From an uncultured Clostridia bacterium (GTDB lineage Bacteria > Bacillota > Clostridia > TANB77 > CAG-508), in the NCBI GenBank assembly GCA_934130085.1, contig CAKOXK010000002.1, forward strand, positions 4,613 through 68,612: a stretch of DNA of 64,000 bases, read 5' to 3'. The notes under the pieces are model-generated. The model was not told the origin of the DNA. It searched no databases and worked only from the letters and a program-made list of their open reading frames with translations. Below are positions 19,360 to 51,610 of the stretch, in pieces. Numbering within the stretch: the stretch's first letter is position 1; every line of letters starts with the position of its first letter. The translations under genes and the position numbers were made by a program.

Positions 19360-19497
19360 ACAGGACTTAATATCATATTGTTTAAAACGACGCGTTAGCA
19401 ACCAAGCGAAGCGCAAATGTTTCTTTCTTCCGAAAGTTAATTTTGACGAAGAAAGAAATGAACAAGTCATTGAAAAAATTTATGATATTAAATCCTG
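19360..19497. repeat. copy 1 of a ~140-bp palindromic repeat element (outer ~31-bp inverted arms, GC-rich core GCGTTAGCAACCAAGCGAAGCGCAA, inner 11-bp hairpin with AGTTAATTTTGAC loop)
   Basis: Direct comparison with 28439-28576 and 46494-46635. Confidence 0.85.
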
Positions 19498-19530
19498 TTC
19501 TGTACAAATCAAATTAATTTTTTCTCTATA

Positions 19531-19566
19531 CAAAAAAAGAGCTTTAATTTTTACATTAAAACTCTT
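19531..19566 (-). terminator. Rho-independent terminator of the dnaK operon
   Basis: A 13-bp stem (AAAGAGCTTTAAT/ATTAAAACTCTTT, 1 mismatch) followed on the minus strand by a 7-U run. Confidence 0.55.
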
Positions 19567-19596
19567 TTAAATATTTAACTTTTTTACCCAAATATT

Positions 19597-24356: not shown

Positions 24357-24383
24357 TTAGCACTCTTTTATTATGTTTGCTAA
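24357..24383 (-). promoter_or_regulatory. CIRCE operator (TTAGCAAAC-N9-GAGTGCTAA on the minus strand)
   Basis: A 9-N9-9 inverted repeat matching the TTAGCACTC-N9-GAGTGCTAA consensus with 2 mismatches, immediately upstream of hrcA. Confidence 0.75.
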
Positions 24384-24391
24384 CTTTCTAT

Positions 24392-24420
24392 ATATTATAA
24401 CCAAAATTAGCAAAAGTCAA
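24392..24420 (-). promoter_or_regulatory. candidate sigma-A promoter of the dnaK operon (TTGACT, about 15-17-nt spacer, TATAAT/TAATAT)
   Basis: -35 and -10 hexamers on the minus strand between the two CIRCE-like repeats. Confidence 0.45.
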
Positions 24421-24433
24421 TAGAGATTGCTAA
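24407..24433 (-). promoter_or_regulatory. second, degenerate CIRCE-like inverted repeat overlapping the -35 region (TTAGCAATC-N9-TTTTGCTAA)
   Basis: 9-N9-9 geometry with 4 mismatches to consensus. Confidence 0.4.
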
Positions 24434-24558
24434 TTTTTATGTGAAAATTTTGTGAAAACAAGAATAAAAAATATATATTATATTACTTTTAAAATTCCGC
24501 TTAAACATCACATAAATTACAAAGAATATATGTAGCCAAAATATAAAGAAACATAAAA

Positions 24559-27035: not shown

Positions 27036-28406
27036 TTAAATTCCAATAGCCTTAAGCGCTTCGTTAATATTTCTGACCCCTATTATATCTAATTTGTATG
27101 TATCTTTCAATAGTTTTTTGTTATTTTGTGGTATAATAACTCTTTTTATGCCAAGCCTCTCGCATTCTTTAAGCCTTTTATCGATCAAATTAACAGACCT
27201 AATCTCACCAGTCAATCCTACCTCCCCCATTATGGCAGTATCTTTTGGAATATATATACTCTTAAAACTTGAAGCCATAACAAGAGCAATTCCAAGATCC
27301 ACAGCCGGTTCGGTAAGTTTCATGCCACTAACTACATTCAAATATACATCTTGATTACTTAAAGATAGCCTTGCCCTTTTCTCAAGAACCGCAATAAGTA
27401 GCGATATTTTATTAAAATCCACCCCATTACCTGTCCTTTTTGGAATACCATATACAGTTGTAGTAGTCAAAGCCTGAAGTTCAACAAGCAAAGCCCTCGT
27501 TCCCTCTAAAGAGCAAACAATGGCAGCCCCTGGCACCTTTTCCTCATCTTCCGAAATAAGAACTGATGAAGGATTAGTAACTTCACACATTCCCTCATTT
27601 CTCATCTCAAACATACCAACTTCATTAGTAGAACCAAACCTATTTTTAACACCTCTTAAAATTCTATATGAAAAATATCTCTCACCCTCTAAATAAAGAA
27701 CAGTATCAACCATGTGTTCCAAAACTCTAGGACCAGCAATATTTCCATCCTTTGTAACATGACCAATAATTATTGTAGTAATTTGATTTTGTTTACAGCA
27801 CTTCATTATTCTTGACGTAATCTCTCTAACCTGGCTAACTGTACCCGGAGCAGAAGAAATCTCATTAGAAAACATAGTTTGAATAGAATCAATTACAACC
27901 AATTCGGGTCTCATACTAAGAACATGACCCTCAATCTCATCAATATCAGTCTCACCCAAAAACATAATAGCATCATTCTTAATATTAAGTCTATCAGCCC
28001 TTAGTTTAACCTGCTCCGCAGACTCCTCACCTGAAACATAAAGAACCTTTCTACCCTCATCTTTATTTGCAATCTTATCACAAAGTTGCAATATCAAAGT
28101 AGACTTACCAATACCAGGCTCGCCACCAATCAAAACCAAAGAGCCCTTAACAATTCCACCTCCAAGAACTCTATCAAGCTCTGAATAACCAGTCTTCCTT
28201 CTAATCTCCTCTTTACCTTCAACAGAGTTCAAAATCAAAGGTTTCGAAGCTTCACTTTGCAAAATCTTTTCGCCAGCCTTTGAAACTTTGCTAACCTTCT
28301 CCTCATAAAAAGAATTCCACGCATTACAAGCTGGGCACTTACCCAGCCATTTAGGAGATTCATATCCACATTCACTACAAACAAAAATTGTACTACTCTT
28401 TGCCAT
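27036..28406 (-). CDS. radA: DNA repair protein RadA/Sms
   Basis: N-terminal C4 zinc finger (CSECGYESPKWLGKCPACNAW), Walker A (GGEPGIGKST) and a Lon-like C-terminus. Confidence 0.95.
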   Translation of the reverse strand: MAKSSTIFVCSECGYESPKWLGKCPACNAWNSFYEEKVSKVSKAGEKILQSEASKPLILNSVEGKEEIRRKTGYSELDRVLGGGIVKGSLVLIGGEPGIGKSTLILQLCDKIANKDEGRKVLYVSGEESAEQVKLRADRLNIKNDAIMFLGETDIDEIEGHVLSMRPELVVIDSIQTMFSNEISSAPGTVSQVREITSRIMKCCKQNQITTIIIGHVTKDGNIAGPRVLEHMVDTVLYLEGERYFSYRILRGVKNRFGSTNEVGMFEMRNEGMCEVTNPSSVLISEDEEKVPGAAIVCSLEGTRALLVELQALTTTTVYGIPKRTGNGVDFNKISLLIAVLEKRARLSLSNQDVYLNVVSGMKLTEPAVDLGIALVMASSFKSIYIPKDTAIMGEVGLTGEIRSVNLIDKRLKECERLGIKRVIIPQNNKKLLKDTYKLDIIGVRNINEALKAIGI

Positions 28407-28438
28407 AATATCCTTTCTAAATATATAAAATATCTGAA

Positions 28439-28576
28439 TAATTAATAATATATTGTTTTTTTTTATGCCGCGTAGCGATCAAGCGAAGCGCGAATGTTTC
28501 TTTCTTCTTACAGTTAATTTTGACTAATGAAGAAAGAAACGAACAAGGCATGAAAAAACAATATATTATTAATTAT
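28439..28576. repeat. copy 2 of the ~140-bp palindromic repeat element
   Basis: Outer arms ATAATTAATAATATATTGTTTTTT...GGCATG/CATGCC...; core GCGTAGCGATCAAGCGAAGCGCGAATGTTTCTTTCTTC...GAAGAAAGAAACGAACA. Confidence 0.85.
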
Positions 28577-28629
28577 AAACCATATTATTTGAAATGCCTC
28601 GTAGCGAATTCGAAATGCCATAAGAGATC

Positions 28630-30600
28630 TTATTTCTCTTGCATCTCACTAAGCAATTTAATAAACATCGCATGTGACCATTCTAACCCAATTACCCATT
28701 TTTCTTTTAAATCAGAATTTACTTGTTCTGCAAGTAATCCAAGTTCAGTTGCACTGTTTACAACAAATCTTAAACATTCATTTGCTTCTCTTTCATTGCC
28801 AACTTTTAGATAGTATAGTCCCATCCAGCATGTTGCTATTATCCAAGGATTTTTACCGCCCATGTAACTGTCATTTTGAAATCTTAAGTATCCGCCTAAG
28901 TATGTTCTCAATGTCATGTTAATTTGTTCAACTGTGTTTCTTATAACTTTTTCATCAGGCTCAAATACTTCAAATGGTATAACTGCACCTATTATGCTTA
29001 TATCTGTTAATCTGTCTGTTGTATTTCTTACTAAAACCTTCTTTTTCTTATCATATAAGTTATCCATTATATATTTTTTTATGTTTCTCATTAAGCTTTC
29101 GTATCTTGCTTTTGCTAAGATTATATCATCTTGTTTTAATCTGTTGTTTGTAAAATTTTCTGATAATTCATTATATATTGACATCATTGCTTTGAATGCC
29201 CCATATATTGCAGAAAGTGAATATAGATGCACTCCTTCGTTCATTTCCCATAAATCATACGACTTATGTTTGTATACTTCGTCTCTATCTTTTGAATTGT
29301 ATTCTTTTTGAAGTTCTATTTTTACTAAATCTTCTTTTTCTTCTATTCCTAAAACATTGTTTATGTATTTTTCAAGAAAATCTGTTGCTTTTTCAAGCAT
29401 TTTTAAGTTGTCTTTTAAAAATTTTGTATCTTTCTTTCCATTCTTTTTGCATTCAAATTTATAAAATTCGTATGCTTCAAATACTACTATTGCTGTTTCA
29501 TCTACCTGATATCCCCAGCATGGTGCAAGGCTTCCATCTGTGAAGAATCTTTGTTCCCACATTCCGTTTTTACTTTGTGTTTTCTTTAAAAATACCTCAT
29601 AGTATTTTTTGCATAAATCATCGAATCCTAATTTGTTTATTGCATCATATATCATTATGCAATCCCTTGGCCAGCTGTATGAATATCTTCCACTTTTGTC
29701 TCTTTCTTCATCAACTTCTAATGATGCAGAGATTGCTCCTGTTTTTTCATTTATCAAAAGTGGCATATACAAAATTGTTCTCTTGTATATTTTTAATAAT
29801 TCATTTTTGAACTTGTTTCCTTCTTCTGCTTTTAATTTTAATGTATCATGCTTTTCAAGAAATCTTCTCCAATAGTTTTCTACCTTTGCTATTTCTTTTT
29901 GGACATTTATTTTTCTAAGTTCGTTTATTTCTTCTTCTAGATTTGCTAAGCCTTCTTCATACTTTATGTACATAATAACATCAAATTCTGTTTCTTCTCC
30001 TGGTTTTAGAACTCCTAAGTCATAACTCGTTGCTGAATCCGGACTCATTCCAATATAGTCTTTATCATTTATTGAGCCTGTTTGAATATTCTTTTCTACG
30101 TTATTAAGTTGATGATTTAACATTTTTTGATTTGCCATTATTGCAAATACAAAGTTATGGCTATATTGTACCAGTGTATCATCTAAAATCATTCCACCTG
30201 CCATATCATTAAATGATGATATTACCTTTGAATTGATTAAAAAATTTATATTTAGATCTATGTTATTTTTGTTTTTTATTACATATCTTTTTATTATTAC
30301 ATCTTTTGATGTCATTACACAATCTGTCTGTTTTACTTTAAAATTGAAATATGTATTTTCTATCTCGGTGTTTAATACATTTGTATCTTCTGTATAATAT
30401 TGTTTATATTTATTGTTTACATCTTCATGTAAATAAATAATATTTGAATCATTAATTTTTAGACCAACATGGAAAAAATCTGCATACTGTCTGTAATCTG
30501 GGAATGGATAATATAAACGTAAAAGTTCTCCATGCTTGCTAAAGCTTGCTGTTACATTTTTGTTTCCTATAAAGGCATCGTTATAAAATTTTTTATTCAT
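28630..30600 (-). CDS. glycoside hydrolase family 15-like protein (glucoamylase/trehalase-related)
   Basis: SWPRD and DLWEMNEGVHLY blocks resemble the GH15 catalytic DLWEE motif; 656 aa. Confidence 0.5.
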   Translation of the reverse strand: MNKKFYNDAFIGNKNVTASFSKHGELLRLYYPFPDYRQYADFFHVGLKINDSNIIYLHEDVNNKYKQYYTEDTNVLNTEIENTYFNFKVKQTDCVMTSKDVIIKRYVIKNKNNIDLNINFLINSKVISSFNDMAGGMILDDTLVQYSHNFVFAIMANQKMLNHQLNNVEKNIQTGSINDKDYIGMSPDSATSYDLGVLKPGEETEFDVIMYIKYEEGLANLEEEINELRKINVQKEIAKVENYWRRFLEKHDTLKLKAEEGNKFKNELLKIYKRTILYMPLLINEKTGAISASLEVDEERDKSGRYSYSWPRDCIMIYDAINKLGFDDLCKKYYEVFLKKTQSKNGMWEQRFFTDGSLAPCWGYQVDETAIVVFEAYEFYKFECKKNGKKDTKFLKDNLKMLEKATDFLEKYINNVLGIEEKEDLVKIELQKEYNSKDRDEVYKHKSYDLWEMNEGVHLYSLSAIYGAFKAMMSIYNELSENFTNNRLKQDDIILAKARYESLMRNIKKYIMDNLYDKKKKVLVRNTTDRLTDISIIGAVIPFEVFEPDEKVIRNTVEQINMTLRTYLGGYLRFQNDSYMGGKNPWIIATCWMGLYYLKVGNEREANECLRFVVNSATELGLLAEQVNSDLKEKWVIGLEWSHAMFIKLLSEMQEK

Positions 30601-39125: not shown

Positions 39126-39425
39126 TTAACTTCGTCTTTATTTTTTCTATTTTCATGTAAGAATTTTACAATATTTTTATCTAAAAGTCTATACATTTTA
39201 TAAATCGTATCTTTTTTTACTTAAAAAAAATACATTGTTTTTTTCTTTACATTTTACAAAACATTGAAAAACAATATAATATTAAGTCTTTTCTGTTAAT
39301 GAAATATTTATCATTTTTACCATTGTGTAGAAAAAGAAAGAACTAAATTGTTCTTTCTTCTTTAACTCTTATTATTACTTTCTTTGCATTTATTATCTCT
39401 TAACTTGTTAGCAATTTCTTGCATA

Positions 39426-41594
39426 CTAACCAGGCTCAGATATCTCATATTTGCTCATCCAGTAACCTGGTAACTCAACACCTGCAAAAGTAAATGCTTC
39501 AGGTACTTTATATATATGGTTTTCGTCTTCATGATTTGTAACATCCTTTGTTATAAAGTTAATGTCATATCCATTAGTACTTTTATCTATTTTATATTCA
39601 TATCTTGGTATCCACACCCAATATGCAATCTTGCCATTTGCTTTAGTTACAATGTTTGCCCATTTTCTTTGAGCATAATCATACCAATTTTGAGGTGCTG
39701 GTTGTGAAATTGGTATATCACTATGTTCTGTTCCATCATCATCCCAGTAAACATAATATGTGTTTTCTTTATCAAGATTATCTAAATTAACTTGTATTTT
39801 CTTTGATGATACGTTCTTTCTTCCTAACGGTATATTATCTTTCATTACACAAACATCATGATCTTTTGTTGAATCTATTCCAGTTATATTGCATGGCAAA
39901 ACGCCTGTAAATTTAAGATCTCCATCAATATATACTCTGTAGTCTTTTCCCTCTTCTTGGTTGTTTACTGAAACCGTTAGATTATTGTTGCAATCATAGC
40001 CTGTTGCGATTTCTTCTGCAGTATCTTTGGTCTCTGATATTTCATATTTGCTTATCCAATAACCTGATAATTCAACTCCCTTAAACGTAAATGCATCTGG
40101 TACTTTGTATATACTATTCTGACTGTTGCTATTAGTGAAATTTTTTGATACAAGTTCTAGACTTAGCCCTTCTTTTTGTGATGGCTCCATTTTATATCTA
40201 TAACGAGGAATCCATACCCAGAAAGTTACCATATTATTGGTCACAGTTACTATATTAGCATATTGTTTTTTACCATAGTTATACCAATTATCTGGAGCAG
40301 GACCTTTATCAATTCTGTTACCAATTTGCATATTTTCACCGTTCTCATCAAATGTTACATAATATGTGGCTTCTGGAGCCAAATTGCTTAAATCAACTAT
40401 CACCTTTTTTGTTGTAACCTGATTTCGTGCTATTATCTTACCATTTTTGGTTACACATATATCATATTTCTTATTTTCCTTTAGTCCGGTAATATCATGT
40501 GGTAAGCTCCCTTTATAATTTTCTATTCCATCTAGATAAACAGTGTAGTCTCCATTCTCCGTGTCATCACAATTTACAGTTATAAAATTAATATCAGTTC
40601 CAAGAGCTAATTGTGGTGAACCATTTTCGCAAACCTCATATTTGCTCATCCAGTAGCCTGCTAATTCCTGATTTGCAAATGTGAATGCTTCTGGTACTTG
40701 ATAATTTGAAGCAAGGCTTTCTGTTGTTCCATCTTCTTTTTTATATTCATTGGTTGTACTTATAAATCTTGCATCTACAGTTTGATCCGACTTAGTTATG
40801 TATGAATACCTTGGTATCCATACCCAATATGCAACCTGATTTCCTGTTACCGTTACTATATTTGCATACTTTTTCTGACTGCTACTATAATCATACCAAT
40901 CTGCTGGAGTATCTACCCTATCAATTCTGCCTGCTATACTTTGATTTCCGTTCTCATCATACGTTACATAGTATGTAGATGTAGGTTCCATATTTGATAA
41001 ATCTGGGGTTTGCATGAATACATCTCCAACTTTTTTGTAAGTTGTGCTTTCTGGAGTTTTATCACCTATATCTGTTTTTCCTCCATCATCTGAATCTTGT
41101 CCTTTGTTATCATCATCCTTACTGTCATCGCCACCATTTTTATCAACAAAATCTTGCCAGCTGTCATAGCTCCACACTGGAATATTTGCTTCAAAACACC
41201 ATTTAACACGTTTTTTATTGTTTGTATAAAAATAATATGTCTTGTTATTTTGAATGATTACTTCCTTTTCATAGTCGCTTTTTATTTCAGGTATAATCTT
41301 TTTTATTTTATCTTGCCCTACTAATCCAACACTTATTGTAAAATCAGGATTTTCAATTTGCTCCCCAGAAACATACATAGTTGCCTCTTCCATATATTTT
41401 TTCATCTGACTTACAAAAGCTGTTTTCTTGGTTCTTTCCAGTAAACCATTTTCACTAAAAACAGTAGCTATTGCAACGCCTGCAATAATTAGTAAAACTA
41501 TAATTGTAACTACAAGTGCTATTAAAGTTATACCATGGTTTTCCAAGCTGTTATTTTTATGTTTTAATTCAGGCTTTAACTTTTGTTTTTGCAT
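39426..41594 (-). CDS. type IV pilin-like (prepilin-type N-terminus) surface protein with three tandem ~200-aa repeat units; start overlaps the 3' end of the DGR RT gene
   Basis: N-terminus ...ENHGITLIALVVTIIVLLIIAGVAIA. The three repeats each end in GYWMSKYE(V/I) and contain WVWIPRY. The repeats are also visible at the DNA level (about 600-bp period). Confidence 0.6.
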   Translation of the reverse strand: MQKQKLKPELKHKNNSLENHGITLIALVVTIIVLLIIAGVAIATVFSENGLLERTKKTAFVSQMKKYMEEATMYVSGEQIENPDFTISVGLVGQDKIKKIIPEIKSDYEKEVIIQNNKTYYFYTNNKKRVKWCFEANIPVWSYDSWQDFVDKNGGDDSKDDDNKGQDSDDGGKTDIGDKTPESTTYKKVGDVFMQTPDLSNMEPTSTYYVTYDENGNQSIAGRIDRVDTPADWYDYSSSQKKYANIVTVTGNQVAYWVWIPRYSYITKSDQTVDARFISTTNEYKKEDGTTESLASNYQVPEAFTFANQELAGYWMSKYEVCENGSPQLALGTDINFITVNCDDTENGDYTVYLDGIENYKGSLPHDITGLKENKKYDICVTKNGKIIARNQVTTKKVIVDLSNLAPEATYYVTFDENGENMQIGNRIDKGPAPDNWYNYGKKQYANIVTVTNNMVTFWVWIPRYRYKMEPSQKEGLSLELVSKNFTNSNSQNSIYKVPDAFTFKGVELSGYWISKYEISETKDTAEEIATGYDCNNNLTVSVNNQEEGKDYRVYIDGDLKFTGVLPCNITGIDSTKDHDVCVMKDNIPLGRKNVSSKKIQVNLDNLDKENTYYVYWDDDGTEHSDIPISQPAPQNWYDYAQRKWANIVTKANGKIAYWVWIPRYEYKIDKSTNGYDINFITKDVTNHEDENHIYKVPEAFTFAGVELPGYWMSKYEISEPG

Positions 41595-42655
41595 TTTCCC
41601 TCCCCGTCTAATGGTTCTTCCTTATTTTCTCTATATATCCATTCACATTTGTCTATTACATTATCTATCAATTTTCTTGAGCTTGCATGAGAAGCATGAC
41701 CTATCCATGCATTTAAGCTTGCACTAACTTTAGTAATATTAAAATCTTTGTTTTTAAATTTTTGATTCCATTTTTTTATTTTTCTATAAATCTTTTTCTT
41801 ATTGCCTTTTAAAATTTTAATATGATTATCTTTTATTTTATATCCACAAAACTTCACACCTTGAGTATTTTTAAAATAATTAGTTTTTTCATTTAGTTCG
41901 AGTTCTAAGTTTTCTTTTAAATAATGTTCTAACTTATTTTTTACATCTTTGCATTCTTCTTTGTTATTCAATAATAATATAAAGTCATCCATGTACCTTA
42001 TATAGTACTTTACTTTTAACTTTTCCTTTACGTAGTGATCAAGCTGATTTAAATAGATATTTGCAAAAAATTGTGAAGTATAATTGCCTATTGGAATGCC
42101 CTTTTTGCTAGTAGTTCTTTGGTAAATGATATTTTTTGTAAATTTTAATAATTTCTTATCTTTTATATATCTTGATAAAATATTGTATAAAATTGATTTA
42201 TCTATGCTGTAGAAAAATTTTCTTATGTCGCATTTTAAAATGTAATAATCTTTATTTTTGTTATACATCTTTTTCATGTAATTTAATAATTGAATTATTG
42301 CTTTATGCACTCCTCTTCCTTCTATGCAAGCATAAGTATCACTTATAAACTTCGGAAGAAAAATTGGCTTTATAAATTCTTCTACATACCATTGATGCAT
42401 TACTCTATCTCTAAATGGTAGTGCCCAAATTATTCTCTCTTTTGGTTCATAGATTTTAAATTTTCTATAGCTTCCAATTACATATCTATCTTTGTAAATA
42501 TCTAATAGCATACTAGTAATGTTAGTTGCTAAGTTCATTTTGAATAAAACTACTTCTTTGTTTTCATGTTTTTCTTTTGAAGCTCTCTTATATGCTTTTA
42601 ACATTTTATCAAATTTAATCTTTTCTTCAAAAATATTACCTATCCTCTTTGGCAA
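41576..42655 (-). CDS. diversity-generating retroelement reverse transcriptase
   Basis: RT motifs including IPIGNYTSQFFANIYLNQLD (the DGR-specific IGxxxSQ) and RYMDDFILL (YMDD). No maturase or endonuclease domains. Adjacent avd and TR/VR. Confidence 0.88.
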   Translation of the reverse strand: MPKRIGNIFEEKIKFDKMLKAYKRASKEKHENKEVVLFKMNLATNITSMLLDIYKDRYVIGSYRKFKIYEPKERIIWALPFRDRVMHQWYVEEFIKPIFLPKFISDTYACIEGRGVHKAIIQLLNYMKKMYNKNKDYYILKCDIRKFFYSIDKSILYNILSRYIKDKKLLKFTKNIIYQRTTSKKGIPIGNYTSQFFANIYLNQLDHYVKEKLKVKYYIRYMDDFILLLNNKEECKDVKNKLEHYLKENLELELNEKTNYFKNTQGVKFCGYKIKDNHIKILKGNKKKIYRKIKKWNQKFKNKDFNITKVSASLNAWIGHASHASSRKLIDNVIDKCEWIYRENKEEPLDGEGKCKNKS

Positions 42656-42999
42656 CTTTTTATCCAGCCTCCTACCATCTTTCCTATTTCTTCAATTTGT
42701 GCATTCCAGTTCATATAGTTTTTATTTGTTATATATTTATATTCGTATGAAAGTCTAACCATTGTTTTTATTACATAGAGTTCTATATCAATTTCATTCA
42801 AGTATCTTACCTTTCTTTCTATGTCTGCTTCTTTCCAAGCCCAGATTACCTTTCTTAAAATATTATATAGTTCGTTTTTTATATCTGTACATAAATCGAA
42901 CCTTTCACTTTTAGGAAACTTTTGTAATAAGTTTTTTGAATAAAATATTAAATTGTTTATTTTTTCATAAATTATTAATCTATTATCTTTTTTAGGCAT
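42640..42999 (-). CDS. avd: accessory variability determinant (Avd, four-helix-bundle protein)
   Basis: 119 aa, basic and helical; resembles the Avd family. A 16-nt overlap with the RT gene implies translational coupling. Confidence 0.7.
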   Translation of the reverse strand: MPKKDNRLIIYEKINNLIFYSKNLLQKFPKSERFDLCTDIKNELYNILRKVIWAWKEADIERKVRYLNEIDIELYVIKTMVRLSYEYKYITNKNYMNWNAQIEEIGKMVGGWIKSCQRG

Positions 43000-43150
43000 T
43001 TAAAATTTTGAAACATCTCGCTTTCGTTTTTATTACTTGTAATTTGTTTCTTTAATGTTTTACCTGTTAAGGAAGGTGCTATACTTCTTTTGTACTTGTA
43101 CTTTTAGTCGAAAGGTTCCATGAAACCTTCCCCTCTTAAATTTATACAAG

Positions 43151-43290
43151 AGTCCCGAGCCAACACACAACACCGCACGAGACGAATTGTTACTGTTACT
43201 ATTACCATTGTTGTTATTATAGCCAAAGAGCGCATTGTTGCTACGTTTGAATACAGGGTTGCCAGAAGTAACAAAATTAGCGTTGGACGA
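43151..43290 (-). other. DGR template repeat (TR), 140 bp, intergenic between the target gene and avd
   Basis: 128/140 identity to 43473-43612. All 12 mismatches are at TR adenines on the coding (minus) strand. The TR is Asn-codon (AAC/AAT) rich in the target frame. Confidence 0.9.
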
Positions 43291-43468
43291 CAGTATAGTA
43301 CCTATGTTTTTAATTTATATTTTTTGAATATTTTATTAATATTATTTTTTGTTTTTTGTTTGTCTATTTTATGTATTTCAATTTATTCTTTATTATTATT
43401 TGTTTTTTTCATTTGTACTTTCGCAATTTATATTTTTTCGTCAATTGTTTTAAGTTCAAAGGGCAGAC

Positions 43469-44131
43469 TTAAAGTCCCGAGCCAACACACAACACCGCAC
43501 GAGACGAATCGCTACTGCTACTAACACCATTGTCGTTATTATAGCCAAAGAGCGCATTGTAGCTACGTTTGAATACAGGGCCGCCAGAAGTAACAAAACC
43601 AGCGCTGGACGAGCTTTTCCAGTTTTTGGTTTCTAGCGTAGCATCTCCTCTTTTTGCTACCTCTCCTGTATATATATTAACATATCTGCTATCTGCATTT
43701 TTCAATTTTGACATATAATCATTTGATGTATTGTAAATACCTGCTACATATTCGTATGTCCCATCTGCCATTTGAAAAATTCCTGTTGCATTGCCTGTTG
43801 TTGAAGCATCTGACCTACCTGATGGAGCACTTCCATAAGGTGATGCTGCAAGCATTGCTGCTGCTCCCCATTCAGTATTCTTAGCCATGTGTACATCAAC
43901 TCCATTATTGCTTGAATCTAAATAAGTGGTGCTATCTAATTGAGCTTTTTTACCTAGTGTTCCTCCTTCAACTTCCATTTGCCTTATTTTTACAAAGAAA
44001 TCATTTGCTGTTGTATTCTTTAAACTAGTTACCCCAGGTCTTGATTGAACCGCCGCATTTACTTTTCCTGTTAACATGAAAGCAGTTAAAATTCCAACAG
44101 TAAAAACTATTGCTGACTTTTTTATTTTCAT
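43469..44131 (-). CDS. DGR target protein: small secreted variable protein (220 aa, SPase-I-type signal peptide, C-terminal variable region)
   Basis: Signal peptide MKIKKSAIVFTVGILTAFMLTGKVNA; the last ~46 codons are the VR, homologous to the TR through the stop codon. Confidence 0.85.
   Translation of the reverse strand: MKIKKSAIVFTVGILTAFMLTGKVNAAVQSRPGVTSLKNTTANDFFVKIRQMEVEGGTLGKKAQLDSTTYLDSSNNGVDVHMAKNTEWGAAAMLAASPYGSAPSGRSDASTTGNATGIFQMADGTYEYVAGIYNTSNDYMSKLKNADSRYVNIYTGEVAKRGDATLETKNWKSSSSAGFVTSGGPVFKRSYNALFGYNNDNGVSSSSDSSRAVLCVGSGL
43473..43612 (-). other. DGR variable repeat (VR) at the 3' end of the target gene
   Basis: See the TR entry. Substitutions are at AAY codon positions 1 and 2 (for example TR AAT to VR GAT, AAC to AGC/GAC/TAC/GGC). 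Confidence 0.9.
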
Positions 44132-45631: not shown

Positions 45632-46408
45632 ATGATAGCTTTAGTTACTGGGGCTTCCTCAGGTATTGGAAAAGATATTGCAGTGGAGCTTGCCAAAAAA
45701 GGATATGATATTATTGCAGTTGCAAGAAATGAAGATAAATTAATTGAATTAAAAACATATATTGAAAGTAGTATTCCTAATAGACGTGTTTTTGTAAAAA
45801 TATGTGATTTAAGTATATCTGATAATTGCATAAAGCTTCATGATGATATTTTTAATGATTTCGGTACAATTGATGTTCTTATTAATAATGCAGGATTTGG
45901 AACTTGCGGCAAGTTTACTGATACTTCACTTGATAAAGAAATAAATATGATTGATACCAATATAAAAGCTCTTCATATTTTGATGAAACTTTTTTTACAG
46001 GATATGTGCAAAGTTAATTACGGCTATATAATGAATGTTGCATCTATTGCAGGTTTTATGCCTGGTCCTTTAATGGCCACATATTATTCTTCAAAAGCGT
46101 ATGTTGTTAGGCTCACCGAAAGTGTACGTGAGGAGCTATTTATGGAAGGTTCAAAAGTTAAAGTTTCAGCTCTTTGTCCAGGCCCTGTAAAAACCAATTT
46201 TAACAAGGTTGCAAATGTTAAATTTAGTGTACCTGGTCAAAATAGTCCTTTTGTTGCAAAATACGCTGTATTTAAAATGTTCTTAAATAGAACTCTTATA
46301 TTTCCAAGCTTTTTTATATGGATATATAGATTGTTATGCAAGATTTTACCTGATAAAATTTCAGCATTTATAAATTATTTTATGCAAAAAAGAAAAATTG
46401 TACGTTAA
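45632..46408 (+). CDS. short-chain dehydrogenase/reductase family oxidoreductase
   Basis: ALVTGASSGIGKDIA Rossmann motif, NNAG, YxxxK. Confidence 0.8.
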   Translation: MIALVTGASSGIGKDIAVELAKKGYDIIAVARNEDKLIELKTYIESSIPNRRVFVKICDLSISDNCIKLHDDIFNDFGTIDVLINNAGFGTCGKFTDTSLDKEINMIDTNIKALHILMKLFLQDMCKVNYGYIMNVASIAGFMPGPLMATYYSSKAYVVRLTESVREELFMEGSKVKVSALCPGPVKTNFNKVANVKFSVPGQNSPFVAKYAVFKMFLNRTLIFPSFFIWIYRLLCKILPDKISAFINYFMQKRKIVR

Positions 46409-46493: not shown

Positions 46494-46635
46494 AGAAATC
46501 GAAAGATATATTGTTTTTCAATTTTGCGTTAGCGATCAAGCGAAGCGCGAATGTTTCTTTCTTCCTAAAGTTAATCTTGACTAGTGAAGAAAGAAACGAA
46601 CAAAAAATTGAAAAACAATATATCTTTCGATTTCT
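46494..46635. repeat. copy 3 of the ~140-bp palindromic repeat element, between convergent SDR and rplQ genes
   Basis: Perfect 32-bp outer inverted arms AGAAATCGAAAGATATATTGTTTTTCAATTTT / AAAATTGAAAAACAATATATCTTTCGATTTCT; the core is identical to copy 2 except at 2-3 positions. Confidence 0.85.
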
Positions 46636-46674
46636 TTAATTAATTATAATTATTAATAAATTATAATTATACAA

Positions 46675-47196
46675 TTAAACAAGTTTTAATATAACTGTTT
46701 CAGCTGCGTCTCCTCTGCGTTGTCCTTTTTTAATTATTTGTGTATATCCACCAACTCTTGATTGATATCTTGGTGCTATAACATTAAATAATTTATCTGT
46801 TAAGTCGATGTTAACTCCATCTTCATCCTTAACTTTATTTAAACTTGCTATCATTTTTCTTCTAGCATTTAATCTTGAAGGTTTATCTTTTTGTCTCTTC
46901 TCTGTTTTATTTTCTTTAACTACTTTTAAGAATTCTTTACCGTTTTTGCTTTTAACTAATTCAGTTTCTTTGTTTCCTTTGCTATCAAGTTTTGCTTTTA
47001 CTACTTTAGCATCAACTTCTTCAAAATTATCTTTTTCTTTAACTGCAAGTGCTATTAGACTATCTGCTAATGATTTAACTTCTTTAGCTCTAGCTTCAGT
47101 TGTTTCAATTTGTTCATGCCAAATTAAGTCTGTAGTTAAATTTTTAAGAATAGCCATACGTGCATCAGTTGGTCTTCCTAACTTTCTATTTGCCAT
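46675..47196 (-). CDS. rplQ: 50S ribosomal protein L17 (173 aa, with a charged internal insertion/extension)
   Basis: N-terminus MANRKLGRPTDARMAILKNLTTDLIWHEQIETTEARAKE is L17. Confidence 0.9.
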   Translation of the reverse strand: MANRKLGRPTDARMAILKNLTTDLIWHEQIETTEARAKEVKSLADSLIALAVKEKDNFEEVDAKVVKAKLDSKGNKETELVKSKNGKEFLKVVKENKTEKRQKDKPSRLNARRKMIASLNKVKDEDGVNIDLTDKLFNVIAPRYQSRVGGYTQIIKKGQRRGDAAETVILKLV

Positions 47197-51315: not shown

Positions 51316-51493
51316 TTGTTTTGCCTTTCTATAATATAATGTTTTGAAAGATTTTCATTTGCCATTTATTTCAAATGTAAATTACTCATCATTCAAAACA
51401 TAATTATTTGTAATTTTTTAAATATTTATTATCATTTATAATACTTTTAATCCTTAGTTACTTATTGTTTAATACTTGTATTAAGTATTCGAT

Positions 51494-51563
51494 ATTTAGT
51501 ATTTAATATTTAATATTTAATATTTAATATTTGATATTTGATATTTAGTATTTGATATTAAAT
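51494..51563. repeat. ten tandem 7-bp units ATTT(A/G)(A/G)T in the adk-map intergenic region
   Basis: Direct inspection: atttagt atttaat x4 atttgat x2 atttagt atttgat attaaat. Confidence 0.8.
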
Positions 51564-51610
51564 TCTCATTTTTTAATTCTGAGTGTTTAACATTAATATT
51601 GCATTTAGTT

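What the first reader, a model, noticed from the sequence alone, without database searches (positions are those of the whole stretch)
46494..46635. Copy-specific but self-complementary outer arms: covariation or insertion into pre-existing terminator hairpins
The outer ~30-bp inverted arms are perfectly or near-perfectly complementary within each copy but differ between copies in their distal 12-17 bp. Copy 1 has CAGGACTTAATATCATA/TATGATATTAAATCCTG, copy 2 has ATAATTAATAAT/ATTATTAATTAT and copy 3 has AGAAATCGAAAG/CTTTCGATTTCT. The proximal ATATATTGTTTTT/AAAAACAATATAT is shared. Two explanations fit: selection for a long helix (compensatory covariation, which argues for a functional RNA/DNA structure), or a ~110-bp mobile element with short TIRs that targets the loop of existing palindromes such as intrinsic terminators. 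Copy 3 sits exactly between convergent genes (SDR and rplQ), where a bidirectional terminator is expected. Either way the element may now serve as the operon terminator.
Basis: inference. Interest (0 to 1): 0.65.

Follow-up and report, generated by a model that had tools for sequence, protein, structure and literature searches.

The report
Palindromic repeat element with flipping core
The flagged sequence is one copy of a small non-coding palindromic repeat found in some uncultured gut Clostridia; its hairpin arms change on both sides together and its middle can flip, so it is a new family of a familiar kind of repeat, not an insertion into an old terminator.

Summary
Three same-strand copies of about 140 nt (19361-19497, 28438-28576, 46494-46635) each fold into a long hairpin around a shared core, with arms complementary within a copy.

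More strains, species and metagenomes show a repeat family absent from Rfam. It has a conserved core of small hairpins, conserved inner arms of about 20 nt starting at ATAT, and variable outer arms of 8-14 nt.

Compensatory change is real: 23 of 51 pairs within the species and 40 of 47 family-wide. It is almost purely Watson-Crick. It comes with three inversions of the core at orthologous sites, arm duplications, and core-less or one-armed remnants. This points to DNA-level copying between arms rather than RNA-level selection.

Insertion into pre-existing terminators is not supported. The dnaJ, rplQ (in sister strains and a sister species), PPIase and KAP-NTPase terminators sit intact beside the elements. 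More distant relatives have only a 38-40-nt terminator spacer between SDR and rplQ. Every "empty" allele still carries arm remnants.

The window strain has lost the rplQ terminator through an 81-nt deletion. Copy 3 is therefore the only hairpin left there and may terminate transcription; this is untested.

It is a new member of a known kind, of moderate interest.

The parts
46494..46635 (+). Copy 3 (the finding): complete element between convergent SDR (45632-46408, +) and rplQ (46675-47196, -). The strand given is the sense of the core, GCGTTAGCG...GAACAA.
   Evidence: CM R1 scores 165 bits.
46494..46505 (+). Copy 3 outer 5' arm, AGAAATCGAAAG. It pairs with 46624-46635, CTTTCGATTTCT.
   Evidence: In strains L098, L099 and L101 it changes to AGAAATTAAAAT/ATTTTAATTATT with mirrored changes on the other arm.
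46506..46525 (+). Copy 3 inner 5' arm, ATATATTGTTTTTCAATTTT. It pairs with 46604-46623. This is the part of the arms conserved across the family and it begins at ATAT.
46526..46603 (+). Copy 3 core: hairpin 1 (46526-46548, GCGTTAGCGATCAAGCGAAGCGC), linker GAAT, hairpin 2 (46553-46597, GTTTCTTTCTTC...GAAGAAAGAAAC), and 3' junction GAACAA.
   Evidence: This segment is inverted in L098, L099 and L101.
46604..46635 (+). Copy 3 3' arm: inner part 46604-46623 and outer part 46624-46635.
28438..28576 (+). Copy 2: complete element between a GH15 gene (28630-30600, -) and radA (27036-28406, -). It ends about 30 nt before the radA start codon.
   Evidence: Present in all 7 strains examined.
28577..28607 (+). 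Copy 2b: truncated second copy abutting copy 2. It keeps the inner 5' arm and the first bases of hairpin 1: AAACCATATTATTTGAAATGCCTCGTAGCGA.
   Evidence: Half-element HMM, E = 0.0011; sequence.
19361..19497 (+). Copy 1: complete but more diverged element, 3' of the dnaJ terminator and upstream of a LytR_cpsA_psr gene. It is absent, apart from its 5' arm, in strains L084, L086 and L088.
19530..19572 (-). Canonical dnaJ terminator (AAAGAGTTTTAAT...ATTAAAGCTCTTTTTTT on the - strand). It is intact and separate from copy 1.
   Evidence: Sequence. Conserved in strains with and without copy 1.
39229..39292 (+). Copy 6: core-less remnant. Both arms remain (ATACATTGTTTTT ... ACAAAACATTGAAAAACAATATAATATTAAGTC) and about 19 nt stand in place of the core.
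   Evidence: 3'-half HMM, E = 5e-5.
24474..24500 (+). Weak remnant (TATATTATATTACTTTTAAAATTCCGC) at the site where strain L083 carries an intact copy 4.
   Evidence: Alignment. 5'-half HMM gives only E = 0.24, so this is tentative.

Best explanation
Copy 3 belongs to a dispersed, non-coding palindromic repeat family of about 140-190 nt in AT-rich uncultured gut Clostridia related to Clostridium sp. CAG:793, CAG:452 and CAG:508. The family behaves like a MITE.

The unit has three layers: a conserved core with two or three small hairpins; conserved inner arms of about 20 nt that start at ATAT; and outer arms of 8-14 nt that differ between copies.

Copies settled in 3' intergenic DNA, usually just beyond an existing terminator or between convergent genes, and then evolved in place.

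The within-copy complementarity of the arms, the outer part included, is kept and probably extended by DNA-level copying of one arm from the other. The likely routes are intrastrand template switching at replication or gene conversion between the inverted repeats. The same process flips the core, duplicates arms, and deletes cores to leave one-armed or core-less hairpins.

Shown here: the family, its anatomy, concerted arm change at orthologous sites, inversions, remnants, and intact neighbouring terminators. Inferred: the template-switching mechanism, past transposition, and any terminator or RNase III role.
For: Family and anatomy:
- There are 5 intact sites and 3 remnants in about 85 kb of one species.
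- Diverged members occur in 6 other species near rplQ and in 8 JGI metagenome contigs.
- The family alignment shows a conserved core and inner arms with variable outer arms.
- Three copies from one metagenome (L128, L129, L134) have nearly identical cores and inner arms but unrelated outer arms.

Concerted arm evolution:
- 97.1% of cells are paired and 23 of 51 pairs changed on both sides. No arm pair varies on one side only, and 0 of 500 shuffles reach the observed value.
- Family-wide, 40 of 47 pairs changed on both sides.
- At the orthologous copy-3 site there are 5 compensated arm pairs against 2 core substitutions between strain lineages.

Recombination between arms:
- The core is inverted at copy 3 in L098, L099 and L101.
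- An otherwise identical 141-nt copy 5 is inverted in L114, bounded by a 16-nt perfect inverted repeat.
- L146 is inverted relative to L129 and carries nested duplicated arms.

Decay products:
- A solo 5' arm remains at the copy-1 site in L084, L086 and L088.
- A core-less hairpin in L072 faces an intact copy in L078, with 96% identical flanks.
- Remnants 2b, 6 and the copy-4 site lie in the window.

Precedent: template switching creates, homogenises and expands inverted-repeat arms (PMC8794818, PMC13100816). Correia elements invert and are cut by RNase III (PMC10969869).
Against: - No naive empty site, no target-site duplication and no autonomous element with matching ends were found, so transposition itself is not shown.
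- The outermost tips of the arms are the least conserved part. In a transposase-recognised terminal repeat the tips are normally conserved.
- Outside the window species the outer arms often look like bidirectional terminators (A-tract, stem, T-tract), and the element can fill the whole spacer between convergent genes. This fits insertion into a terminator loop equally well.
- The core is conserved across species. It includes a GC-GUAA-GC mini-hairpin in the long form and two invariant U-G pairs in one sense. The + sense folds better in 15 of 16 same-species copies. These features hint at an RNA-level constraint that arm-to-arm copying does not explain.
- The family-wide alignment was fitted to the model structure, so its pair counts lean towards that structure.
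Confidence: 0.55

Rival explanations
1. A mobile unit of about 110-150 nt, with terminal repeats of about 20 nt starting at ATAT, homes into the apex of pre-existing palindromes, chiefly bidirectional intrinsic terminators. The outer arms are then the host hairpin's stem.
For: - Identity drops abruptly at ATAT between otherwise near-identical copies (L128, L129, L134; copies 2 and 3).
- Outer arms such as AAATCAGGTTCCA/TGGAACCTGATTT (L129), AAAAGAGTAT/ATACTCTTTTT (L133) and AAAATCCAATA/TATTGGATTTT (L036) resemble the plain terminators of relatives.
- 7 of 13 non-window members with ORFs on both sides lie between convergent ORFs. In L129 the ORFs end only 4 and 7 nt from the element.
- L072 keeps a clean 16-bp hairpin where L078 has the full element.
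Against: - In the window species the canonical terminators of dnaJ, PPIase, KAP-NTPase and rplQ are intact and lie beside the elements, not around them. Sister species L147 also keeps the rplQ terminator intact.
- L152 and L002 have only a 38-40-nt terminator spacer whose stem is unrelated to copy 3's arms.
- The closest relative at the copy-2 site (L090) has a 19-nt spacer with no palindrome.
- Copies 1, 5 and 6 share outer-arm sequence, GAYTTA.
- The 'empty' alleles keep family-specific inner-arm sequence, so they are deletion products and not naive targets.
- Core-less hairpins carrying the arm motif are not common in the window.
Confidence: 0.15
2. The helix is kept by selection on a transcribed structure. 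Candidates are a long-hairpin bidirectional terminator or 3'-end stabiliser, an RNase III-processed module, or a small RNA released from 3' UTRs.
For: - Strong covariation covers hairpin 2 inside the core as well. Copy 4 has GTTGCAATCTTC/GAAGATTGCAAC where the others have GTTTCTTTCTTC/GAAGAAAGAAAC. Family-wide, 10 of 12 pairs of that hairpin changed on both sides.
- The core has conserved unpaired sequence, a GNRA-type GC-GUAA-GC hairpin in the long form, and U-G pairs kept in every same-species copy.
- The + sense is more stable in 15 of 16 copies.
- The location is 3' of genes. The window strain has lost the rplQ terminator. In L098-type strains the element starts about 15 nt after the SDR stop codon.
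- Copy 2 must be co-transcribed with radA, because only about 30 nt separate it from the start codon.
Against: - There are almost no G-U intermediates in the arms.
- Orientation flips relative to the neighbouring genes with no other change.
- Decayed and one-armed copies are tolerated.
- No promoter-like site scores above chance, and the consensus scan finds no terminator.
- No Rfam family matches.
- Most copies lie downstream of a functioning canonical terminator.
Confidence: 0.2
3. The element is a programmed invertible switch (an inverton), flipped by a site-specific recombinase acting on the arms to change expression of a neighbouring gene.
For: There are three inversions at orthologous sites. 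One is bounded by a 16-nt perfect inverted repeat with no other sequence change.
Against: - No promoter was found inside the element.
- No recombinase gene was seen next to any copy (gene tables).
- Orientation is fixed within strain lineages at copies 2 and 5, apart from one strain.
- The invertible segment is only about 110 nt.
Confidence: 0.05

Closest known systems
Correia repeat-enclosed elements (CREE/NEMIS) of Neisseria
   Same: Both are small (about 100-200 nt), non-coding and multi-copy. Both have long terminal inverted repeats that fold the whole unit into a hairpin around a core, lie in intergenic DNA near gene ends, and show insertion polymorphism between strains. Inversion of the enclosed core is documented for CREE, and CREE hairpins in transcripts are cut by RNase III (PMC10969869).
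   Different: There is no sequence relationship and the host phylum differs. Correia repeats are conserved to their tips and flanked by a TA duplication; here the tips vary and no duplication is seen. No promoter or IHF-like site was found here.
Pneumococcal SPRITE, RUP and BOX repeats and other Firmicute intergenic repeats
   Same: They are short dispersed repeats of Firmicutes that form stable hairpins. SPRITE is named for its resemblance to rho-independent terminators (abbreviation list of PMC10969869).
   Different: They are different sequence families. I know of no report, from memory and untested here, of layered arms (conserved inner, copy-specific outer) or of core flipping in these repeats.
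REP, BIME and REPIN elements, and IS1397/ISKpn1, which insert into REP loops
   Same: REPINs are hairpin doublets whose arms stay complementary. IS1397-type elements are the known precedent for insertion into the loop of a pre-existing palindrome (from my own knowledge).
   Different: No GTAG-type REP motif, no RAYT gene and no abundant population of empty palindromes carrying the arm motif were found. The terminators next to the window copies are uninterrupted.
Template-switch evolution of inverted repeats, and 'minute inversions' in hairpin loops
   Same: Replication template switching makes perfect reverse-complement copies. It creates and maintains stems with apparently compensatory changes (PMC8794818) and homogenises and expands inverted-repeat arms (PMC13100816). 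Flipping of the spacer between short inverted repeats is a classic outcome, known from chloroplast hairpins (from my own knowledge).
   Different: These are general mutational processes, not an element family. They explain the behaviour of the arms here but not the conserved core or its spread.

Membership tests
MITE (miniature inverted-repeat transposable element) | Small, non-coding and present in several dispersed copies | tested here: met
   The element is 135-190 nt with no ORF. There are 5 sites and 3 remnants in about 85 kb of one species, and further copies in other species and metagenomes.
MITE (miniature inverted-repeat transposable element) | Terminal inverted repeats conserved between copies, including the tips | tested here: inconclusive
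   The inner 20 nt or so of the arms are conserved family-wide, but the outermost 8-14 nt differ between most copies. Copies 1, 5 and 6 do share them.
MITE (miniature inverted-repeat transposable element) | Direct target-site duplication flanking each copy | tested here: not met
   No consistent direct repeat flanks any of the 5 sites (sequences). The flanking similarity is inverted, not direct. A palindromic AT or ATAT duplication cannot be excluded.
MITE (miniature inverted-repeat transposable element) | Presence/absence polymorphism with a clean empty site | tested here: not met
   Polymorphism exists at copy 1, copy 4 and the first L078 copy (L078:5689-5845, adk-map spacer), but every 'empty' allele keeps arm sequence.
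MITE (miniature inverted-repeat transposable element) | A related autonomous insertion sequence with the same ends | not testable with these tools
   Whole genomes could not be searched. The only transposase seen (UPF0236 family, L102) has unrelated flanks.
Intrinsic (rho-independent) terminator | Short G+C-containing hairpin with a 3-8-nt loop followed by a U-tract | tested here: not met
   The consensus scan finds none at copies 1-3. The hairpin is 142 nt. The tails after the arms are U-rich on both strands but are not a clean U-tract.
Intrinsic (rho-independent) terminator | Sits at the 3' end of a transcription unit, with no other terminator present | tested here: met
   This holds for copy 3 in the window strain only. 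The rplQ terminator kept by L097-L101 was removed by an 81-nt deletion between ATAATTATAAT repeats. Copies 1, 4 and 5 follow intact terminators.
Intrinsic (rho-independent) terminator | Stops transcription | not testable with these tools
   This needs Term-seq or a reporter assay.
Any Rfam RNA family | Score at or above the family's gathering threshold | tested here: not met
   The element has no match at the gathering threshold in the window or in 9 loci with family members. Only chance-level matches appear at E up to 10.
Inverton (programmed invertible promoter segment) | Segment between inverted repeats found in both orientations | tested here: met
   Copy 3, copy 5 and the L129/L146 pair each occur in both orientations.
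Inverton (programmed invertible promoter segment) | A promoter inside the segment and a linked site-specific recombinase | tested here: not met
   No promoter-like site scores above chance. No recombinase appears in the gene tables around the copies.
REP/REPIN | REP doublet with a conserved GTAG-type motif and a RAYT transposase in the genome | not tested
   The arms show no such motif on inspection. The presence of RAYT could not be checked without the whole genome.

The most novel reading that the evidence does not exclude
The conserved core may be a functional structured RNA or DNA module that spreads by homing to transcription-termination sites. There it would either enter terminator hairpin loops or build a copy-specific long stem from the flanking sequence by fold-back copying. 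Flipping of the core would then decide which of two convergent genes carries the sense RNA in its 3' UTR. That would be a terminator-associated, invertible mobile RNA module in Firmicutes with no described counterpart.
Probability: 0.12. Interest if true: 0.7.

Novelty: new member of a known kind. Interest (0 to 1): 0.35.

Why it matters
The family gives a clean natural example of how long hairpins stay perfectly paired while their sequence drifts. Orthologous sites in sister strains show mirrored substitutions, flipped cores, duplicated arms and one-armed remnants.

This is a caution for covariation-based RNA discovery: here strong "compensatory" statistics most likely arise without RNA-level selection.

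It also adds an undescribed repeat family, absent from Rfam, to a poorly known group of uncultured gut Clostridia. The repeat sits at operon ends and in one strain has replaced the terminator of the ribosomal-protein/rpoA operon. It is useful for annotation, strain typing and assembly breakpoints, and as a candidate for testing long-hairpin termination or RNase III processing.

Tried and rejected
- An exact 24-mer of the core found nothing in genome, metagenome or viral collections. The window's species is not in those sets.
- blastn of the core against plasmids and phages gave only chance hits.
- Rfam searches at gathering and at permissive thresholds found no family. The MIR837 and Phe_leader hits only reflect a generic long hairpin.
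- nhmmer with 3 copies found no relatives in 80 rplQ loci. Covariance models were needed.
- I first read the copy-1 empty allele as proof that one arm is made at insertion. I dropped that reading once copies 5 and 6 showed that arm to be family sequence.
- I searched for a naive empty site through flanking proteins: HrcA, RpoA, MinC and SDR homologues. Only filled, decayed or non-orthologous sites turned up.
- The L147 hairpin at the copy-3 position looks by eye like a decayed copy, but the model does not detect it.
- G-U versus A-C mismatch counts do not settle the transcribed strand.
- Resemblances to parS half-sites, the ssoA CS-6 motif (TAGCGA), attC sites, hammerhead or twister ribozymes and retron RNA were considered. 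I rejected them because the motifs are not conserved across copies or the architecture does not fit.
- The UPF0236 transposase at the contig end has unrelated flanks.

Full report
**1. The observation**

The window holds three same-strand copies of an element of about 140 nt. They lie at 19361-19497, 28438-28576 and 46494-46635 (family D2; sequences). A 24-mer from the core occurs three times against none expected.

Each copy folds into one long hairpin enclosing two small hairpins. Energies are -37.8, -53.7 and -66.0 kcal/mol, with z-scores of -6.1, -10.7 and -11.9.

The "shared" ATATATTGTTTTT/AAAAACAATATAT is shared only by copies 2 and 3. A further helix segment next to the core also differs in a compensated way: CAATTTT/AAAATTG, ATGCC/GGCAT and GAC/GTC.

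**2. Setting**

The window is part of an ENA gut-metagenome contig, ERZ27287188 k141_884380, 125.7 kb. The organism is related to uncultured Clostridia such as Clostridium sp. CAG:793, CAG:452 and CAG:508. G+C content is 29.5%.

All three copies lie 3' of minus-strand genes (ORFs):
- Copy 1 follows dnaJ, at the end of hrcA-grpE-dnaK-dnaJ.
- Copy 2 follows a GH15 gene and lies just upstream of radA.
- Copy 3 follows rplQ, which is convergent with an SDR gene.

No Rfam family matches. No similar DNA is found in plasmids or phages.

**3. More copies from sister strains**

Exact-protein look-ups gave the same loci from other samples.

- **Copy 1.** It is present in L082 and L083. In L084, L086 and L088 only its 5' arm remains (TAGGACTTAATATCATATT). 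The canonical dnaJ terminator is intact in all of them.
- **Copy 2.** It is present in all seven strains, with small differences. A relative with 86% HrcA identity (L090) has a 19-nt GH15-radA spacer and no palindrome.
- **Copy 4.** Strain L083 carries a fourth copy between a PPIase gene and hrcA. Its hairpin 2 reads GTTGCAATCTTC/GAAGATTGCAAC instead of GTTTCTTTCTTC/GAAGAAAGAAAC, which is three double compensations. The other strains, the window included, have only a weak remnant there.
- **Copy 5.** It lies about 1.8 kb beyond the window end, after the KAP-NTPase terminator and facing a convergent SpoVT gene. It is present in eight strains.
- **Remnants in the window.** These are 28577-28607 (copy 2b), 39229-39292 (copy 6, arms without a core) and, tentatively, 24474-24500.

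**4. The arms change in concert and the core flips**

At the copy-3 site, strains L098, L099 and L101 carry the core in the opposite orientation to the window, L097 and L100. Between these two lineages the arms differ at five base pairs, each changed on both sides. Three are in the outer arm (AGAAATCGAAAG to AGAAATTAAAAT, with mirrored changes opposite). Two are in the inner stem (CAATTTT/AAAATTG to CGCTTTT/AAAAGCG). The 78-nt core differs at only two bases.

At copy 5, strain L114 has an element identical to that of L117 but inverted. The inversion is bounded by the 16-nt perfect repeat AAGATTTAATATCATG. A third inversion separates L129 from its 97%-MinC relative L146, where the arms are also duplicated in a nested fashion.

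Across 13 distinct same-species sequences, 97.1% of cells pair and 23 of 51 pairs changed on both sides. No shuffle reaches these values, and slid controls pair at about 45%. Notably, no arm pair varies on one side only, so G-U intermediates are almost absent.

**5. The wider family**

A covariance model built from these copies found diverged members in six other species among 80 rplQ loci. Six of those seven hits lie just 3' of rplQ, in either orientation. A second model added only two weak hits.

A motif from these members recovered eight more in JGI metagenomes and none in IMG/VR. None matches Rfam.

The family alignment shows:
- a conserved core: CCGCG-TAGCGAnC-AACCGA-AGCGTAA-GCGAAGGGCGAnTG, then one or more variable hairpins, then GCGAC-AyCAAGG;
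- a shorter form in the window species, lacking about 12 nt that include a GC-GUAA-GC mini-hairpin;
- conserved inner arms beginning at ATAT;
- outer arms of 8-14 nt that are copy-specific.

Family-wide, 90% of cells pair and 40 of 47 pairs changed on both sides. That alignment was fitted to the model, so it leans towards the structure.

**6. Testing "insertion into pre-existing terminators"**

Evidence in favour:
- Identity between otherwise near-identical copies drops abruptly at ATAT (L128, L129 and L134).
- Many outer arms outside the window species resemble bidirectional terminators.
- 7 of 13 such members with ORFs on both sides sit between convergent ORFs. In L129 they fill the spacer to within 4 and 7 nt of the ORF ends.
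- L072 has a clean 16-bp hairpin where its 96%-identical relative L078 has the full element.

Evidence against:
- That L072 hairpin still contains the family's inner-arm sequence. It is therefore a core-deletion product, or at least not a naive site.
- The copy-1 "empty" allele likewise keeps family sequence.
- Copies 1, 5 and 6 share outer-arm sequence.
- The canonical terminators of dnaJ, PPIase, KAP-NTPase and rplQ lie intact beside the elements, not around them.

Graded relatives found through SDR homologues show the following:
- L152/L154 (79% SDR identity) and L002 (69%) have a 38-40-nt spacer holding one ordinary bidirectional terminator, unrelated to copy 3's arms.
- L147 (87%) has that kind of terminator intact next to rplQ. 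It also has a separate 82-nt imperfect hairpin at the element's position. The model does not recognise that hairpin.
- Sister strains L097-L101 have an intact rplQ terminator followed by the element.

The element therefore arrived next to the terminator, not inside it.

**7. The terminator idea for the window strain**

The window strain alone has lost the rplQ terminator, through an 81-nt deletion between ATAATTATAAT direct repeats. Copy 3 is then the only strong hairpin after the ribosomal-protein/rpoA operon.

In L098-type strains a 78-nt deletion places the element about 15 nt after the SDR stop codon. Both arm bases are followed by U-rich sequence. The consensus scan nevertheless calls no terminator or promoter there. 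A terminator role is plausible but inferred.

**8. Interpretation**

The most economical account is a MITE-like palindromic repeat family whose arms are homogenised, extended, inverted, duplicated and deleted by DNA-level copying between arms. Template switching is a documented way to create and maintain hairpins with apparently compensatory changes and to expand inverted-repeat arms (PMC8794818, PMC13100816). Inversion and RNase III processing are documented for the analogous Correia elements (PMC10969869).

Several points remain open:
- how the family spreads, since no target duplication, parent element or naive empty site was found;
- why the tips of the arms are the least conserved part;
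- why the core is so well conserved, with RNA-like features and a preferred folding sense.

I put about 0.55 on DNA-level concerted evolution of a repeat element, 0.2 on RNA-level selection, 0.15 on insertion into palindromes and 0.05 on a programmed switch. These readings are not mutually exclusive.

**9. Verdict**

This is a new member of a known kind of element. It is of moderate interest, mainly as a worked example of "covariation" without demonstrated RNA function and as an unannotated repeat at operon ends in uncultured gut Clostridia.

Noticed in passing
window 39426-44131 (- strand): This is a complete diversity-generating retroelement. It comprises bAvd (42640-42999), a reverse transcriptase (41576-42655), a 722-aa repeat protein (39426-41594) and an RT-14 RNA (Rfam RF02921, 43009-43152). 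The template repeat is 43151-43290 and the variable repeat is 43473-43612, at the 3' end of the ORF 43469-44131. All 12 differences between the two repeats fall on adenines of the template copy. The cassette is present in strains L096 and L098 and absent in L097 and L099-L101.
   Followed up: partly
window 46636-46674 compared with L097:11601-11720: The window strain lacks the canonical rplQ terminator (AAAAATCAAAGTA...TACTTTGATTTTTT) that sister strains keep. It was removed by an 81-nt deletion between ATAATTATAAT direct repeats.
   Followed up: yes
window 51479-51590 and 2498-2562: There are AT-rich tandem repeats with a 14-nt period (TATTTAATATTTAA-like), in the adk-map spacer and in another intergenic region. 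In species L078 the adk-map spacer instead holds a copy of the palindromic element.
   Followed up: no
L146:6630-6900: In a 97%-MinC relative of L129 the element sits inside a second, outer pair of arm copies, forming a nested palindrome. Its core is inverted relative to L129.
   Followed up: partly
L147:2064-2145: An 82-nt imperfect AT-rich hairpin lies at the position of copy 3 in a sister species (87% SDR identity), beside an intact rplQ terminator. It could be a decayed copy, but the covariance model does not detect it.
   Followed up: partly
L102:17044-18510 (same contig, beyond window position 1): A UPF0236-family (ISLre2-type) transposase gene lies at the end of the contig. Its flanks show no similarity to the element's arms.
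   Followed up: partly
window about 24360-24440 (upstream of hrcA): Two CIRCE-like operators (TTAGCA...N9...TGCTAA) and a TTGACT...TATAAT promoter lie upstream of hrcA and are conserved in all strains.
   Followed up: no
window 46675-47196: Ribosomal protein L17 is 173 aa long with a lysine/glutamate-rich internal insertion. From my own knowledge that is about 50 residues longer than typical bacterial L17. The insertion is shared by all 80 related species recovered.
   Followed up: no
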